A stretch of DNA of 64,000 bases from a virus (Duplodnaviria; Heunggongvirae; Uroviricota; Caudoviricetes), in IMG/VR virus record IMGVR_UViG_2639762884_000001, one strand, 5' to 3'. Below are positions 29,334 to 42,058 of the stretch, piece after piece. Under the pieces are notes generated by a model. That model searched no databases and was not told the DNA's origin. It was given only the letters and a program-made list of their open reading frames with translations. The first letter of the stretch is position 1; every line of letters starts with the position of its first letter. The position numbers were made by a program, and so were the translations under genes.

Positions 29334-29557
29334 ATACAACGATAAGATCATTACGGTTAATCGTCGTTCATGTGCACAATGACTGGTCGAAAGGTAGTGA
29401 TCTTACCGTTGTGGTGGATTCGCAGACTGATGCGATAGCTTTCTTGGATGTTAGGGAAATGCGGCCGCAAATCTTCCCTTTCGCGAGCGGTGATCGTCCG
29501 TAGTCCTAATTGGCTGCACCGTATGCCGGAGATTCAGTACCGGCTATCACAACGGCC

Positions 29558-29644
29558 GGAGAGTAGGGAGCATGGTGCTCAAGCGGTCTTGAAAACCGTC
29601 CCATTGCGCAAGCGATGATGGTTCGATTCCATTACTCTCCGCCA
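29558..29644 (+). tRNA. tRNA-Ser (anticodon TGA), type II
   Basis: Acceptor ggagagt/actctcc, anticodon region ggtCTTGAAAAccg closely resembling enterobacterial tRNA-Ser(UGA), long variable arm, T-loop ttcgatt, encoded CCA. Confidence 0.7.
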
Positions 29645-29800
29645 GACACAGCGTTGAGCGGTTTGGCCTTTTAATCAACTCGATTAAGACTCCGCTAACA
29701 TAAACCAGACCGCTCAACGCTGTGATAGACAATTACGGCAGACGTTCTTAACCATAGCTTGCTAACATCCTAGCAACACTTTTTTTTCAGCGCAAAATTC

Positions 29801-29823
29801 AAAGGGGCTTCGGCCCCTTTTTG
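29801..29823. terminator. Bidirectional rho-independent terminator
   Basis: aaa-ggggcttcggcccc-ttttt; A-tract on one side and T-tract on the other, at the 3' end of the minus-strand gene 29830-31050. Confidence 0.6.
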
Positions 29824-29829
29824 GCTGGG

Positions 29830-31050
29830 TTAATTAAAACCGAATGAATTAAGTTCTGCTTTGAATTTATCGACCATTTTTTCAACTTCGTTTACAATTG
29901 CGTGAATCTCTTCGTCTTTTCTCGGATTAGAATTGAGGTCAAAATATGCCTTATATAAGGCATATTTTGACAAGCTTCCTTCAATATTTTCAGAGAAAAT
30001 ATTGGTACGACCATCAGTTAATAAGATATCAGCAGATCGGGAATTTAAATTATATTTATAGTAAATCTTTATTAGTCTGCTTATCTCTTTTTCATTCTTG
30101 ATTACCCTCTGTCTTTTACCAGCAATATTAAGACTCCAGCCTACATAACTAGTCAGATCGGAATTAAACTTACACACTTCCGCATCAGCTTTTTCCATAT
30201 TTAGATTAATATTATTTCTCATGTGTAGCGGTAATTCGTTGAATTTTTGCTGTAAATGCTGTTTGCAGGGATTGTTGTAAGACCACAGAATTGCGAACGT
30301 AGCTCTTTGCATCCGGGTATTCAGATCGATGTTAAAGTTCTCACGATCACGAATCATTTCATCTACATAAAACTCTACAGCTTTTCGGTATTCTTTGTTA
30401 AAGATCTCGGTAACATACATTTCTAAATAATGGACTTTCGAGATTGCCTCATCAAAAAAAAGCTCACTCTCAAAGAAGTTGTATTTATTTAAGAGATTAG
30501 AAAGTCTACTTAAGTCATAGGTTTTATTATTTTCAATATTAAGACCAAAAATGGCAATTAACAGACTTACTTTATGATTAATACTGCTACGTAATTGAGC
30601 TATATAAATTCTCTTTTCATCTTCTGCTGATGACAGTAGATAAAACTCTTTATCTAAATAATTTAAAATTAGAATTATGTGATTTACATATTTAATGTAA
30701 ATAGGTTGTTTTGTTACATAATAATAAATGCTTTTGATGGAATTAATGCTCAATTTCGTATTAAACTCTTTGTCATTCAACAAAGTGTTATTTACGTCCT
30801 CAAGTAATTTATCATGTTGCTCTAGTAATATTCCGTACCATTCTTTAAAAGAGGCTTTTTTCATTTCAAGAAGTGAATCTGCCGTTAATTGTGTTGCCTT
30901 CATTGCAGCTTTTGCACTATTTCTTGCCTCATAAGCAGCCCAAGCAGTAACAAAAGTAGCAAGTGAACCTATAGCCTCTTTGTATTCTTTAGCCACATCC
31001 CAAAAAATAATAGTTATTACACACAATATGAGAATTAATATTAAAGGCAT
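29830..31050 (-). CDS. AT-rich membrane-anchored protein of unknown function (candidate accessory/defence gene)
   Basis: 406 aa; N-terminal TM helix PLILILILCVITIIFW then a helical N/K/Y/I-rich soluble domain; markedly lower GC than flanking DNA; opposite strand. Confidence 0.5.
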   Translation of the reverse strand: MPLILILILCVITIIFWDVAKEYKEAIGSLATFVTAWAAYEARNSAKAAMKATQLTADSLLEMKKASFKEWYGILLEQHDKLLEDVNNTLLNDKEFNTKLSINSIKSIYYYVTKQPIYIKYVNHIILILNYLDKEFYLLSSAEDEKRIYIAQLRSSINHKVSLLIAIFGLNIENNKTYDLSRLSNLLNKYNFFESELFFDEAISKVHYLEMYVTEIFNKEYRKAVEFYVDEMIRDRENFNIDLNTRMQRATFAILWSYNNPCKQHLQQKFNELPLHMRNNINLNMEKADAEVCKFNSDLTSYVGWSLNIAGKRQRVIKNEKEISRLIKIYYKYNLNSRSADILLTDGRTNIFSENIEGSLSKYALYKAYFDLNSNPRKDEEIHAIVNEVEKMVDKFKAELNSFGFN

Positions 31051-31256
31051 GTTATCTATATCGTTAGTTAATTTTGAACATAAATGATACTTAGTCCACC
31101 GCTAAATTTCATCAAATTTGATAATTTTCTTGACGATCATGTCTCAAAATTATTTATACTTGGCATATTTGAGATATATAATAATAGGTAATAACACACC
31201 TATCACATTTAAGCATCAACAAGATAAATTACGGACCCAGACCAGAAAGGAAACTA

Positions 31257-31505
31257 ATGAGAAATATACTTATCTACGGACGAGATAACTGCTCATACTG
31301 CAAACGTGCGGTCGAGCTGGCGAAGAAACTAAAGGGACATGGCTACGGTGATTATGAGTACATCGACATCACCACTGCCGGTATCGATAAGGAAAAACTT
31401 AGCGAAATTGTTGGTAAACCGGTAGAGACTATCCCCCAGGTGCTGATCGATGGCCAGCCGATTGGCGGATACACAGAACTGGCTGCATACGTCAGCACCC
31501 TCTGA
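31257..31505 (+). CDS. Glutaredoxin-like protein (NrdC/NrdH-type)
   Basis: 82 aa with CSYC redox motif near the N-terminus (YGRDNCSYCKRA) and glutaredoxin-like C-terminus (PQVLIDGQPIGGY). Confidence 0.7.
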   Translation: MRNILIYGRDNCSYCKRAVELAKKLKGHGYGDYEYIDITTAGIDKEKLSEIVGKPVETIPQVLIDGQPIGGYTELAAYVSTL

Positions 31506-41050: not shown

Positions 41051-41077
41051 AGGCCCGTTATATAACGGGCCTTTTAG
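41051..41077. terminator. Bidirectional rho-independent terminator
   Basis: aggcccgtta-tata-acgggcct followed by TTTT; between the polymerase operon and the convergent minus-strand gene. Confidence 0.55.
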
Positions 41078-42058
41078 TTAACAAATTCTATTATTAACTA
41101 GTATAGTATGGAGTTTATTATTTATAGGGGAATACGGATCGAAATCACTCATCATGACACTATTTGATTCGCACGCCTGTTCAAAGGCATACATAATTAT
41201 AGGCATATAGCGCTCATGACATTTTTTAAGTGATTTAACTTCCTCTGATAGATACTCTAGTCGATTGTTACCTCTAATAGCCAATTCCACCTCATCATAT
41301 GAGTACAACAAATCGTTTAAATCACAGAAAAAATTAAAATTTGGTAGTCCATGTTTTAAATCCCCGTCCACAATTGTTTCTTCAAAGAATTCCCCTAATG
41401 CAGTAATGTTTCTCTCAATACCTTCGCATCGTTCAATGATCTTCAGATCTTCACTAGATAGCCATAATCTAAGCCATTTCTCTCTATCCCTTGGAGATTT
41501 CAGATATTGGTCTTCGTTAAATGTTACTGATGTACTTCCTGAGTTATTGTAATCCGCTGTACTTGATAACGATGCGATGGTTTGTTTGTCTAAATGCCGC
41601 CAGTAAATATCTGGCTCTTCATGCTTATTATCTTCGTTTAGACAAATTAAAACGATCACTATAGGGAAATCGCATTCCCCCCAATACTTTAAATTTTTAT
41701 AGGGGATCTGTACTCCTAGACTACTACTCATTGTGCGTGAGGTGGTTTTTACCTGAACGCCAATAAACATACCGGTAGAAAGTTCATTTTCATAGATTTC
41801 AACCTGTGCATCCAACCCCATATCAATATCCAGCAGTCGACAAGGCCATTTGAAATAACGGGAAATCCAATAAGCAAATAAGTACTCACCAGCGTGTCCT
41901 TCTGCACTGGTCTTCGGATATGTCATGCCTTCAGTTTTATTTTTTTCTGCTGCTGACCTCGCAGACTTAACTTTTGGGGGTGGGGACAGTTCTTTAGTCG
42001 GCACAGGCTTTTCTGCTTTTGCTTGATTGTTAGCTTTATTCATTGATTTTATTCTCAC
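41078..42058 (-). CDS. AT-rich PD-(D/E)xK nuclease-like protein (DUF4365-like) of unknown function (candidate defence gene)
   Basis: 326 aa; after a Lys/Pro-rich N-terminus: AEGHAGEYLFAYWI ... LLDIDMGLDAQVEIY ... FIGVQVKTT, a D...E...(Q)VK arrangement of restriction-endonuclease-like folds; low GC; opposite strand. Confidence 0.5.
   Translation of the reverse strand: MRIKSMNKANNQAKAEKPVPTKELSPPPKVKSARSAAEKNKTEGMTYPKTSAEGHAGEYLFAYWISRYFKWPCRLLDIDMGLDAQVEIYENELSTGMFIGVQVKTTSRTMSSSLGVQIPYKNLKYWGECDFPIVIVLICLNEDNKHEEPDIYWRHLDKQTIASLSSTADYNNSGSTSVTFNEDQYLKSPRDREKWLRLWLSSEDLKIIERCEGIERNITALGEFFEETIVDGDLKHGLPNFNFFCDLNDLLYSYDEVELAIRGNNRLEYLSEEVKSLKKCHERYMPIIMYAFEQACESNSVMMSDFDPYSPINNKLHTILVNNRIC

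What the first reader, a model, noticed from the sequence alone, without database searches (positions are those of the whole stretch)
29801..31250. AT-rich opposite-strand gene for a membrane-anchored 406-aa protein beside the tRNA cluster and recombinase module
Gene 29830-31050 has much lower GC than the surrounding genome, is transcribed against its neighbours, ends at a bidirectional terminator (29801-29823) and has its own AT-rich promoter region (31051-31250). The product has one N-terminal TM helix and a large helical N/K/Y/I-rich domain with no motif recognisable by eye. Its position next to tRNAs and a tyrosine recombinase is a typical hot spot for acquired cargo such as abortive-infection or exclusion proteins.
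Basis: partly seen in the sequence, partly recalled or inferred. Interest (0 to 1): 0.7.

Follow-up and report, generated by a model that had tools for sequence, protein, structure and literature searches.

The report
Divergent AbiC/AbiP-like membrane protein moron
A low-GC, backwards-facing gene in a swappable slot of an SSU5-type phage-plasmid encodes a membrane-anchored protein that is a distant, so far unrecognised relative of the lactococcal AbiC/AbiP abortive-infection proteins, so it is most likely a stand-alone anti-phage gene, though this is untested.

Summary
ORF 29830-31050(-) encodes 406 aa and has the lowest GC of 57 ORFs in the window (31.1% against a mean of 46.4%, z = -4.5). 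It is convergent with a tRNA operon, abuts a GC-rich hairpin (29803-29822) and has a 28.6%-GC upstream region. The window is an SSU5-supergroup phage-plasmid of E. coli.

The segment 29826-31269 is swapped in near-identical relatives. They carry other genes there, one of them a defence-type HNH nuclease, or a 76%-identical allele.

The protein has no direct Pfam, PADLOC or NCBIfam hit and no informative fold match. Its family is rare: 85 representatives among 1.84 billion proteins. A family profile is homologous over its full length (hhalign E 5e-39) to enterobacterial proteins that pass Pfam PF16872 putAbiC. Those proteins link to the lactococcal AbiC/AbiP group only through a ~60-aa core.

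Homologues sit as lone opposite-strand morons in the Orf30 slot of a P2-like prophage and in a lambdoid prophage. Each carries the same ~75-nt promoter block.

Best reading: a single-gene, membrane-anchored abortive-infection or exclusion protein, with a conserved N-terminal module and a variable C-terminal half. It is a divergent variant, because about ten core residues, mostly polar, are replaced. Function and mechanism remain inferred.

The parts
29830..31050 (-). CDS of the 406-aa membrane-anchored protein (divergent putAbiC / AbiC-AbiP-like)
   Evidence: ORF. GC 31.1%, lowest of 57 ORFs. dN/dS is 0.15-0.23 against distant alleles, so it is a real gene under purifying selection. The family profile matches PF16872-bearing proteins with hhalign E 5e-39 over 394 columns.
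31000..31047 (-). Codons for aa 2-17, the strongly hydrophobic N-terminal transmembrane helix (PLILILILCVITIIFW)
   Evidence: Kyte-Doolittle 19-residue mean is 2.7. The segment is conserved as MPxLLILILGTVMIIFWD in relatives.
30931..30975 (-). Codons for aa 26-40, a second hydrophobic segment rich in small residues (AIGSLATFVTAWAAY). It is probably TM2 of a hairpin and is 4 aa shorter than in most relatives.
   Evidence: Alignment A1 shows the 4-residue gap. Hydropathy over a 15-residue window peaks at 1.3 here, against 1.4-1.9 (19-residue window) for the longer segment in relatives. It lies in one of the best-conserved blocks of the close family.
30811..30930 (-). Codons for aa 41-80: conserved juxtamembrane helix (EARNSAKAAMKATQLTADSLLEMKK.SFKEW) ending in the LLEQH motif
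   Evidence: Majority fraction is 0.78-0.88 in A1. F68, L75, L76, Q78 and H79 are also near-invariant in remote putAbiC proteins.
30466..30702 (-). Codons for aa 117-195: region equivalent to the Pfam PF16872 putAbiC core
   Evidence: The close relative P0075 matches PF16872 at aa 132-207 with 22.7 bits. Remote relatives match at the equivalent place with 24-37 bits. Y121, L129, Y149, R154, S155, I157, F192, F193 and E194 are retained, while S119I, R123N, Y126I, H127L, K130N, N159H, D160K, N168F, Y183L and H195S are replaced.
29833..30450 (-). Codons for aa 201-406: variable C-terminal half (helices plus a small beta element), the candidate sensing or specificity module
   Evidence: Majority fraction is only 0.44-0.61 in close relatives and about 0.2 in the wider family. 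The model has pLDDT mostly above 85, with strands at aa 306-309, 342-345 and 350-352.
31051..31125 (-). Upstream block that travels with the gene: -35-like ATGAAA (31107-31112), -10 TATCAT (31084-31089), A-rich leader CAAAATTAAC, and no Shine-Dalgarno sequence
   Evidence: The block is conserved in nine alleles from SSU5-like phage-plasmids, a P2-like prophage, a lambdoid prophage and two chromosomal sites. Sequence further upstream differs with context. The hexamers are also listed.
31051..31256 (.). AT-rich divergent intergenic region between the gene and grxA
   Evidence: GC 28.6%. A promoter-like site on the + strand, TTTATA-18-TATAAT at 31153-31182, faces grxA.
29803..29822 (.). GC-rich hairpin usable as a terminator in both directions. 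It is a backbone feature that ends the tRNA operon and abuts the stop codon of the gene.
   Evidence: Sequence and fold. It is present in relatives that lack the gene: homology runs to 29825/29831.
29826..31269 (.). The exchangeable segment (cargo cassette): the gene, its promoter region and the first codons of grxA
   Evidence: Homology to Cyrano and pECAZ162_2 stops at 29825/29831 and resumes at 31270/31271. In pWP4-S18-ESBL-07_2 the flanks are 97-98% identical but the gene is only 76% identical.
29938..29971 (.). Perfect 34-bp palindrome inside the CDS (aa 360-371, SKYALYKAYFD). Its role is unknown.
   Evidence: It is the longest perfect palindrome in the 64-kb window. None of 2000 shuffles of the gene exceeds an arm of 11. 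It is absent from the 96%-identical allele. A 70% copy lies at 31141-31170.

Best explanation
The gene is a self-contained 'moron': a cargo gene with its own promoter, carried by an SSU5-supergroup phage-plasmid. It most likely protects the lysogen against other phages.

Proposed mechanism, by analogy with the AbiC/AbiP group. An N-terminal hydrophobic hairpin (aa 2-17 and 26-40) anchors the protein in the inner membrane. The basic stretch EARNSAKAAMK after the second segment places the ~350-aa helical body in the cytoplasm. The conserved module (aa 41-200: juxtamembrane helix, LLEQH motif and putAbiC-like core) would be the effector. The fast-evolving C-terminal half (aa 201-406) would recognise a phage product. 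On infection the protein would arrest phage development after DNA entry, as reported for its distant relatives. AbiP binds RNA in preference to ssDNA, blocks phage DNA replication and the early-to-late transcription switch, and is triggered by a major tail protein. AbiC lowers major capsid protein production.

What is shown: the gene, its outlier composition, the exchangeable slot, purifying selection, the conserved promoter block, full-length homology to PF16872 proteins, and carriage by three kinds of temperate phage.

What is inferred: the topology, the division into effector and sensor, and the anti-phage phenotype itself.
For: - Cargo status. GC is lowest of 57 ORFs (z = -4.5). The segment 29826-31269 is swapped between backbones that are 95-99% identical. 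Alternative occupants of the slot include an HNH/CBASS-effector-like nuclease (PDC-M68A, 6e-25). Only about 17 of 208 E. coli genomes with the flank carry the family. SSU5 lacks the whole interval.
- Homology. A profile of 34 close relatives finds only 85 representatives among 1.84 billion proteins. 49 of the 56 aligned extended-family members match PF16872 at E <= 0.01, best 1.2e-13. All 10 sampled remote members pass the 22-bit gathering cut-off at the equivalent position. hhalign of the close family against the remote family gives probability 99.96% and E 5e-39 over 394 columns. Nine remote members match PADLOC AbiC (1.3e-6) and six match AbiP (1.1e-4). The remote family against the lactococcal AbiC-like family gives probability 91% and E 1e-6 over the 60-column core.
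- Architecture. It agrees with the published description of the AbiC/P group: one or two N-terminal TM helices plus a helical body with no assignable fold (PMC13064643).
- Moron behaviour. A 55%-identical homologue sits in the Orf30 slot (between S and V) of a P2-like prophage. A 45%-identical one sits between the replication and nin/Q genes of a lambdoid prophage. All are opposite-strand, low in GC (31-38%), and carry the same ~75-nt promoter block.
- Conservation pattern. The N-terminal half is conserved and the C-terminal half variable, as expected for an effector-plus-sensor defence protein.
- Literature. Genes of unknown function in phage defence hot spots are often defensive (PMC13586616).
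Against: - The window protein itself has no hit in Pfam, PADLOC or NCBIfam.
- Its family profile does not match the lactococcal AbiC-like family directly (E 0.076). The link to experimentally studied proteins is therefore two steps long and rests on a ~60-aa core.
- Ten residues that are near-invariant in canonical enterobacterial putAbiC proteins are replaced, mostly polar ones: S119I, R123N, Y126I, H127L, K130N, N159H, D160K, N168F, Y183L, H195S. The biochemical activity may therefore differ.
- None of the papers read here reports a tested enterobacterial putAbiC protein. A lactococcal AbiC-like protein 38% identical to AbiC gave no resistance in one screen (PMC11381338).
- The mechanism of the AbiC/P group itself is unresolved.
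- The soluble body is not basic: net charge is about 0 and pI about 7. This gives no support to nucleic-acid binding.
- Expression in the lysogen was not examined.
Confidence: 0.55

Rival explanations
1. Superinfection-exclusion protein. This would be a prophage-encoded inner-membrane protein that blocks DNA entry of incoming phages, in the manner of P22 SieA, T4 Imm or HK97 gp15. It would not abort an infection that is already established.
For: - It has an N-terminal membrane anchor, and the membrane-proximal sequence rich in small residues is very strongly conserved.
- It is carried by three types of temperate phage as an autonomous gene with its own promoter.
- The polar residues of the putAbiC core are lost, which allows a changed activity.
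Against: - There is no sequence or profile similarity to any named exclusion family. Pfam gives nothing, and PHROGs gives only the unknown-function family phrog_18168.
- The characterised relatives act after DNA entry: AbiP on replication and transcription, AbiC on capsid protein production.
- Most of the protein, about 350 aa, is predicted to be soluble, and its variable half is far from the membrane.
Confidence: 0.15
2. Lysogenic-conversion membrane protein with a role unrelated to phage defence. Examples would be envelope modification, stress tolerance or host colonisation, or a regulator of the element's own lysis or lysogeny.
For: - It is a moron with its own promoter, and no function has been shown.
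- Neighbouring cargo includes grxA, and phoH in relatives, which are physiological genes.
- No match to a validated defence model.
Against: - Full-length homology to the putAbiC family.
- The slot also holds a defence-type nuclease in relatives.
- Rapid allele replacement and a variable C-terminal half are typical of conflict genes.
- Patchy presence, about 8% of E. coli elements, argues against a role in the element's own life cycle.
Confidence: 0.12
3. Membrane-toxic protein that serves plasmid maintenance (post-segregational killing), or simple selfish cargo.
For: - The element is maintained as a plasmid.
- A YafO toxin gene lies in the same variable interval, between grxA and the integrase, in an Enterobacter relative.
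- The missing Shine-Dalgarno sequence could reflect a need for low expression.
Against: - No partner antitoxin ORF lies in the cassette. The only other ORF in 31051-31256 is a 56-aa TTG ORF that overlaps grxA.
- Homologues also occur in integrated prophages and as lone chromosomal genes, where addiction makes little sense.
Confidence: 0.05
4. Spurious or decaying ORF in AT-rich junk DNA.
For: The composition is extreme and databases give only 'hypothetical protein'.
Against: - 75 homologues are intact at full length or nearly so.
- dN/dS is 0.15-0.23 at dS of about 1.
- The structure model is confident, with pLDDT 83.
- A promoter block is conserved with the gene.
Confidence: 0.01

Closest known systems
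Enterobacterial 'putative phage abortive infection protein' family (Pfam PF16872 putAbiC; 430-480 aa; chromosomes of Pectobacterium, Dickeya, Yersinia, Klebsiella, Proteus and others)
   Same: - Homologous over the full length: hhalign E 5e-39 over 394 columns.
- Same architecture: N-terminal hydrophobic hairpin, LLEQH motif, putAbiC core at about aa 120-200, and a long variable C-terminal half.
- Shared residues: F68, L75, L76, Q78, H79, Y121, L129, Y149, R154, S155, I157, F192, F193 and E194.
   Different: - Sequence identity is only 15-23%.
- The window protein does not reach the Pfam model.
- Ten near-invariant residues of the core, mostly polar, are replaced.
- The window's branch is mostly carried by phage-plasmids and prophages rather than chromosomes.
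- None of the papers read here reports a tested member of either branch.
Lactococcal AbiC and AbiP (the 'AbiC/P group', PMC13064643)
   Same: - Single-gene systems on mobile elements.
- One (AbiP) or two (AbiC) N-terminal TM helices, followed by a helical body with no assignable fold (here).
- Remote relatives of the window protein match the PADLOC AbiC and AbiP models.
- Those relatives also match a lactococcal AbiC-like family over the ~60-aa core: probability 91%, E 1e-6.
   Different: - No direct profile match between the window's family and the lactococcal family.
- In the lactococcal AbiC-like proteins compared here (about 295-360 aa) the core lies near the C-terminus, at aa ~190-250 of 338. 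They lack the 200-aa variable C-terminal half.
- Host phylum and target phages differ.
- The properties of AbiP (RNA/ssDNA binding, tail-protein trigger) and of AbiC (less capsid protein) are known only for those two proteins.
P2 Orf30 and other temperate-phage morons and defence hot-spot cargo (P2 old, tin and fun(Z), recalled from memory; P2/P4 defence hot spots, PMC13586616)
   Same: - Same geometry: a nonessential, AT-rich, opposite-strand gene placed just after the terminator of an upstream operon.
- A 55%-identical homologue of the window protein occupies exactly the P2 Orf30 slot, between S and V, in a P2-like prophage.
- The slot is rapidly swapped between near-identical backbones.
   Different: - The similarity to Orf30 is positional only. 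No sequence comparison with P2 Orf30 was made.
- The slot here lies in a phage-plasmid, between a tRNA cluster and grxA/integrase.
Abi_C domain (PF14355; AbiJ/SadR HEPN RNases)
   Same: Only the name.
   Different: - It is a different family, a HEPN RNase with an R-polar-x3-5-H motif (PMC13590631).
- No Pfam match to it in the window protein or its relatives.
- It is listed here to prevent confusion.

Membership tests
Pfam PF16872 putAbiC | The protein scores above the curated gathering cut-off (22 bits) against the family HMM | tested here: not met
   The window protein has no PF16872 hit even at E <= 10. Among 34 close relatives, 10 give hits at E <= 10; of the ten scanned individually only P0075 passes the cut-off, at 22.7 bits.
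Pfam PF16872 putAbiC | Homology to proteins that are bona fide members (profile-profile) | tested here: met
   The A1 profile retrieves remote proteins at E 1e-36 to 1e-5 from 1.84 billion representatives. 49 of 56 aligned members match PF16872, and 10 of 10 sampled pass the cut-off. hhalign A1 against A3 gives probability 99.96% and E 5e-39.
Pfam PF16872 putAbiC | Conserved residues of the core motif (Y-M-R-x-L-Y-H-L-L-K ... R-S-x-I-R-N-D ... A-V-N ... F-F-E-H) | tested here: not met
   Y121, L129, R154, S155, I157, F192, F193 and E194 are kept. Replaced are S119I, R123N, Y126I, H127L, K130N, N159H, D160K, N168F, Y183L and H195S.
AbiC/P group (lactococcal AbiC, AbiP) | N-terminal membrane anchor of one or two helices followed by a helical extramembrane body | tested here: met
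   Hydropathy shows a strong helix at aa 2-17 and a weaker second segment at aa 26-40. The AlphaFold2 model is mostly helical with pLDDT 83. The group is described in PMC13064643.
AbiC/P group (lactococcal AbiC, AbiP) | Detectable sequence homology to the lactococcal proteins | tested here: inconclusive
   Direct test: A1 against the lactococcal AbiC-like family A4 gives E 0.076, not significant. Indirect test: A3 against A4 gives probability 91% and E 1e-6 over 60 core columns. PADLOC AbiC and AbiP models hit 9 and 6 remote relatives but not the window protein. A p275A 'AbiC-like' protein and its relatives were used instead.
AbiC/P group (lactococcal AbiC, AbiP) | Single gene sufficient; autonomous transcription unit on a mobile element | tested here: met
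   There is no partner ORF in the cassette. The promoter block is conserved with the gene in five kinds of context. Sufficiency for a phenotype was not tested.
AbiC/P group (lactococcal AbiC, AbiP) | Confers phage resistance with abortive-infection characteristics; AbiP-type nucleic-acid binding | not testable with these tools
   This needs phage challenge, survival assays at high multiplicity of infection, and EMSA with the soluble domain. The net charge of the body is about 0, which gives no hint either way.
Named superinfection-exclusion and other phage membrane families (Pfam, PHROGs) | Profile match to an annotated exclusion, holin or immunity family | tested here: not met
   Pfam gives no match. 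PHROGs gives only phrog_18168, 'unknown function', at 1.3e-130.
Alpha-helical pore-forming toxins (ClyA, colicin Ia and similar) | Significant structural match | tested here: not met
Abi_C / AbiJ HEPN RNases (PF14355) | Abi_C domain with the R-polar-x3-5-H motif | tested here: not met
   No Pfam hit to PF14355 in the window protein or in 34 + 56 relatives. One relative gave a HEPN hit at E 0.5, which is noise.

The most novel reading that the evidence does not exclude
The phage-borne branch to which this protein belongs is a functionally distinct, unrecognised family of single-protein anti-phage effectors. It keeps the membrane hairpin and scaffold of putAbiC proteins but has replaced their invariant polar core residues. 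It would therefore act through a different effector chemistry. One possibility is oligomerisation of the small-residue-rich TM2 and juxtamembrane helix to breach the membrane, triggered through the hypervariable C-terminal half. It would spread as a promoter-plus-gene cassette among SSU5-like phage-plasmids, P2-like phages and lambdoid phages.
Probability: 0.2. Interest if true: 0.6.

Novelty: new variant of a known kind. Interest (0 to 1): 0.4.

Why it matters
SSU5-type phage-plasmids are common in clinical E. coli, Shigella, Salmonella and Klebsiella. The one genomic survey read here (bioRxiv 10.1101/2025.09.12.675607) reports defence systems as less frequent in them than in P1-like elements.

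This gene shows that at least part of their unannotated cargo belongs to a defence-associated superfamily that PADLOC does not detect here. That cargo can shape which phages, including therapeutic ones, can infect the carrier strain.

The gene also offers an E. coli-based entry point into the AbiC/P group, whose mechanism is still unknown more than 30 years after its discovery in lactococci. It is a compact single gene with natural allelic series (96%, 69% and 55% identical). Its conserved and variable halves are clearly separated, which suits domain swaps and mapping of the phage trigger.

Tried and rejected
- **Direct family searches with the window protein.** Pfam, PADLOC and NCBIfam gave no hits. 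PHROGs gave only an unknown-function family.
- **tblastn against 50,697 phage records.** No match, so the gene is absent from deposited phage genomes, including close relatives of this element.
- **Profile search of PDB sequences.** Only noise, E >= 0.037.
- **HEPN RNase idea.** Rejected: no motif, and only one E 0.5 hit in one relative. The literature 'Abi_C' domain is a different family.
- **Mobility signature.** I looked for direct or inverted repeats bracketing the cassette, such as att or attC-like sites. Only short, weak matches typical of AT-rich DNA were found. The swap is better explained by homologous recombination in the conserved flanks.
- **Hexamer scan as proof of a promoter.** Not above chance, so it was replaced by the phylogenetic footprint.
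- **Direct profile comparison with lactococcal AbiC-like proteins.** Not significant.
- **Nucleic-acid binding hinted by charge.** The body is neutral, so there is no support.
- **Elevated dN/dS (0.81) between the two closest alleles.** It rests on only 26 substitutions, so it was not used as evidence of positive selection.
Full report
**1. What is in the sequence**

The window is part of an SSU5-supergroup phage-plasmid of E. coli.
- Around the finding it is about 98% identical to Escherichia phages CMS-2020a and Cyrano.
- It also matches non-mobilizable plasmids of about 108 kb.
- Its CobT/CobS-like genes are 72% identical at the DNA level to Salmonella phage SSU5.

The protein is identical to WP_049592666.1, a 'hypothetical protein' of a chicken E. 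coli plasmid.

Composition is a strong outlier. I took 57 non-overlapping ORFs of at least 80 aa from the window. Their mean GC is 46.4% with sd 3.4. This ORF has 31.1% GC and 28.5% GC3, the lowest on both measures (z = -4.5).

The orientation claim also holds. 49 of the 57 ORFs are on the + strand, and both neighbours of this gene are too. These are a cluster of four tRNAs (Asn, Tyr, Thr, Ser) at 29087-29644 and grxA at 31257-31505.

**2. Signals at the two ends**

*Downstream end.* Seven bases past the stop codon lies the hairpin AAAGGGGC-TTCG-GCCCCTTT (29803-29822).
- It is followed by a T-run on the + strand and by UUUGAAUUUUG on the minus strand.
- It folds at -12.8 to -14.1 kcal/mol.
- The simple terminator scan missed it, probably because the A-T extension of the stem uses up the T-run.
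- The hairpin belongs to the backbone. Relatives without the gene keep it, and homology with them ends at 29825/29831.

*Upstream end.* The region 31051-31256 is 28.6% GC. Promoter-like hexamers are not more frequent than chance.

A phylogenetic footprint gives better evidence. I aligned the upstream DNA of nine alleles from five kinds of context: SSU5-like plasmids of E. coli, Enterobacter and Salmonella; a P2-like prophage; a lambdoid prophage; and two chromosomal sites.
- About 75 nt before the ATG are conserved in all nine.
- The block contains a -10 TATCAT (window 31084-31089), a -35-like hexamer 17 nt upstream (31107-31112) and an A-rich leader, CAAAATTAAC.
- There is no Shine-Dalgarno sequence.
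- Further upstream the sequences are unrelated.

The gene therefore moves together with its own promoter.

**3. It sits in an exchangeable slot**

Two E. coli relatives lack the gene, phage Cyrano and plasmid pECAZ162_2. Against them, 95-99% identity stops at 29825/29831 and resumes at 31270/31271. The slot is filled differently in different elements:

| Element | Contents of the slot |
|---|---|
| Cyrano | a gp49-family gene |
| pECAZ162_2 | a 184-aa ORF, a 262-aa protein and a phoH remnant |
| Enterobacter and Salmonella relatives | a homologue of the target gene, followed by phoH and other genes |
| SSU5 | nothing: only 165 bp between tRNA-Asn and CobT, so the whole block from tRNA-Tyr to the HTH repressor is absent |

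The N-terminal domain of the 262-aa protein in pECAZ162_2 matches defence-type HNH nucleases (PADLOC PDC-M68A at 6e-25, plus CBASS effector models).

In E. coli plasmid pWP4-S18-ESBL-07_2 the flanks are 97-98% identical to the window, but the gene is only 76% identical. That is allelic replacement, not vertical divergence.

Among complete E. coli genomes, 208 carry the conserved flank but only about 17 carry a member of this family. No bracketing repeats suggest site-specific insertion.

**4. It is a real gene under selection**
- 75 homologues were found, almost all intact.
- dN/dS is 0.15-0.23 against alleles at dS of about 1.
- All homologues are low in GC (31-38%), whatever the host.
- The N-terminal 21-80 and central 121-200 residues are well conserved, and the C-terminal half (aa 201-406) is variable.

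**5. What the protein is**

Direct searches fail:
- Pfam, PADLOC and NCBIfam give no hit.
- PHROGs gives only phrog_18168, of unknown function.
- tblastn finds nothing in 50,697 phage records.
- An AlphaFold2 model is confident (pLDDT 83, pTM 0.75) and mostly helical, with a small beta element.

The link came from profiles, in three steps.

*Step 1: weak direct signal.* When 34 close relatives were scanned one by one, 10 gave weak hits to Pfam PF16872 'putAbiC, putative phage abortive infection protein'. One of them, P0075, reached the gathering cut-off: 22.7 against 22 bits at aa 132-207, equivalent to aa ~117-195 here.

*Step 2: remote relatives are true family members.* A profile of the 34 was searched against 1.84 billion representative proteins and found only 85.
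- Of 56 aligned members of this extended family, 49 match PF16872, best 1.2e-13.
- All 10 remote members examined pass the cut-off at the equivalent position.
- NCBI names such proteins 'putative phage abortive infection protein'.
- A profile-profile comparison of the close family against 41 remote members gives probability 99.96% and E 5e-39 over 394 columns. The relationship therefore covers the whole architecture, not only the core.
- Nine remote members also match the PADLOC AbiC model (1.3e-6) and six match the AbiP model (1.1e-4).

*Step 3: link to lactococcal proteins.* I retrieved a lactococcal AbiC-like protein from plasmid p275A and built its family.
- The remote enterobacterial family matches it over the ~60-residue core: probability 91%, E 1e-6.
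- The window's own family does not match it directly: E 0.076.

So the connection to experimentally studied Abi proteins is real but two steps long.

**6. How it compares with the AbiC/P group**

- AbiP binds RNA in preference to ssDNA and needs its TM segment.
- AbiP stops phage DNA replication and the switch-off of early transcripts, and is triggered by a major tail protein.
- AbiC reduces major capsid protein production.

The window protein has a strongly hydrophobic helix at aa 2-17. It also has a second segment rich in small residues at aa 26-40, four residues shorter than in most relatives. The basic stretch EARNSAKAAMK follows this segment, which fits a hairpin with the body in the cytoplasm. 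That topology is inferred, not shown.

There are clear differences from canonical putAbiC proteins. Of about 32 positions that are near-invariant in them, the window protein keeps the scaffold and the QH motif: F68, L75, L76, Q78, H79, Y121, L129, Y149, R154, S155, I157, F192, F193 and E194. It replaces ten positions, mostly polar: S119I, R123N, Y126I, H127L, K130N, N159H, D160K, N168F, Y183L and H195S. The body is electrically neutral. The effector chemistry may therefore have changed.

**7. Context elsewhere**
- A 55%-identical homologue lies on the opposite strand between the tail genes R/S and the baseplate gene V of a P2-like prophage. In P2 itself that interval holds the nonessential, opposite-strand Orf30, directly after the O-operon terminator. 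The geometry is the same as here.
- A 45%-identical homologue lies on the opposite strand between the replication genes and ninG/rusA/Q of a lambdoid prophage.
- Two others are lone chromosomal genes with long intergenic flanks.

One promoter-plus-gene cassette is thus shared by three types of temperate phage. A recent study reports that genes of unknown function in P2/P4 defence hot spots frequently prove defensive and are swapped between near-identical elements (PMC13586616).

**8. Interpretation**

The most likely reading (confidence about 0.55) is a single-gene, membrane-anchored anti-phage protein of the AbiC/P type, expressed from the resident phage-plasmid. It would have a conserved membrane-proximal effector module and a variable C-terminal specificity module.

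| Rival reading | Confidence |
|---|---|
| True superinfection exclusion at the membrane | 0.15 |
| Lysogenic-conversion function unrelated to defence | 0.12 |
| Maintenance toxin | 0.05 |
| Spurious ORF (excluded by the selection data) | 0.01 |

**9. Novelty and value**

The gene is annotated 'hypothetical' everywhere, is missed by PADLOC, and lies outside the current Pfam model. It is nevertheless homologous to a known but mechanistically unsolved Abi superfamily, so I rate it a new variant of a known kind.

A specialist would not be surprised to find a defence-like moron in such a slot, so interest is moderate (0.4). Its value is practical: it is a compact candidate in E. coli, with natural allelic series, for working out how AbiC/P-type proteins act. 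It also points to unrecognised defence cargo in clinically common SSU5-type phage-plasmids (bioRxiv 10.1101/2025.09.12.675607).

**10. Loose ends**

A perfect 34-bp palindrome (29938-29971) lies inside the coding region. It is the longest in the window, is absent from the 96%-identical allele, and was not reached by any of 2000 shuffles. A 70% copy lies in the promoter region. I have no explanation for it.

Noticed in passing
window 29938-29971 (and 31141-31170): A perfect 34-bp palindrome, GTCAAAATATGCCTTAT|ATAAGGCATATTTTGAC, lies inside the CDS (aa 360-371). It is the longest in the whole 64-kb window and is specific to this allele. Relatives have only 7-nt arms at the same centre, and none of 2000 shuffles exceeds an arm of 11. 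A 70%-identical copy lies in the gene's upstream region. It might be an operator or a hairpin site, or a coincidence of the KYALYKAYF codons.
   Followed up: partly
window 41078-42058 (-), with hairpin 41051-41072: This is a second low-GC (37.3%) opposite-strand gene, of 326 aa. It has a DUF4365 domain (2.3e-16) and matches the PADLOC model Aga_REase-PNTD1-PNTD2 (2.2e-10), that is, a restriction-endonuclease-like, defence-associated fold. It ends at a 22-bp GC-rich palindrome. It is probably another cargo or defence moron with the same geometry.
   Followed up: partly
window 22949-24139 (-): An opposite-strand 396-aa protein made of Sel1/TPR repeats (Pfam Sel1, 1.5e-53), with GC 41.4%. Its role in a phage-plasmid is unknown.
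   Followed up: no
L003 5836-6624 (+) (E. coli pECAZ162_2, same slot as the target gene): The alternative occupant of the slot is a 262-aa protein whose N-terminal ~125 aa match defence-type HNH endonuclease models: PDC-M68A at 5.7e-25, plus CBASS effector, SAVED-HNH and SduA models. It is preceded by an unannotated 184-aa ORF. It is probably another unclassified defence cassette.
   Followed up: partly
window 29647-29724: A 20-nt inverted repeat, 95% complementary with a 38-nt spacer (CACAGCGTTGAGCGGTTTGG / CCAGACCGCTCAACGCTGTG), begins three bases after tRNA-Ser and lies upstream of the terminator hairpin. It is part of the conserved backbone. Its function is unknown.
   Followed up: no
window 29087-29644 compared with L001 3592-3839 and L015 7526-7597: The tRNA cluster itself varies between related elements. 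This window has Asn-Tyr-Thr-Ser, phage Cyrano has Asn-Thr-Ser, and SSU5 has Asn only and goes straight on to CobT. SSU5 thus lacks grxA, the integrase and the HTH repressor.
   Followed up: partly
window 31153-31270: The homology break with relatives falls at 31270, inside the first codons of grxA. The grxA promoter-like site (TTTATA-18-TATAAT, 31153-31182) and the grxA start are therefore part of the swapped segment, not of the backbone.
   Followed up: no
window 31051-31083: There is no Shine-Dalgarno sequence before the ATG of the target gene. Instead, an A-rich leader (CAAAATTAAC...) is conserved in all alleles. This could mean deliberately weak or unusual translation initiation.
   Followed up: no
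L007 20612-21245 and L005 1671-3521: Near two homologues of the target gene lie AAA_15/AAA_21 (OLD/ABC-like) ATPase genes. One is at the end of the P2-like prophage locus and one is in the Pectobacterium chromosomal region. They are possibly further defence cargo.
   Followed up: no
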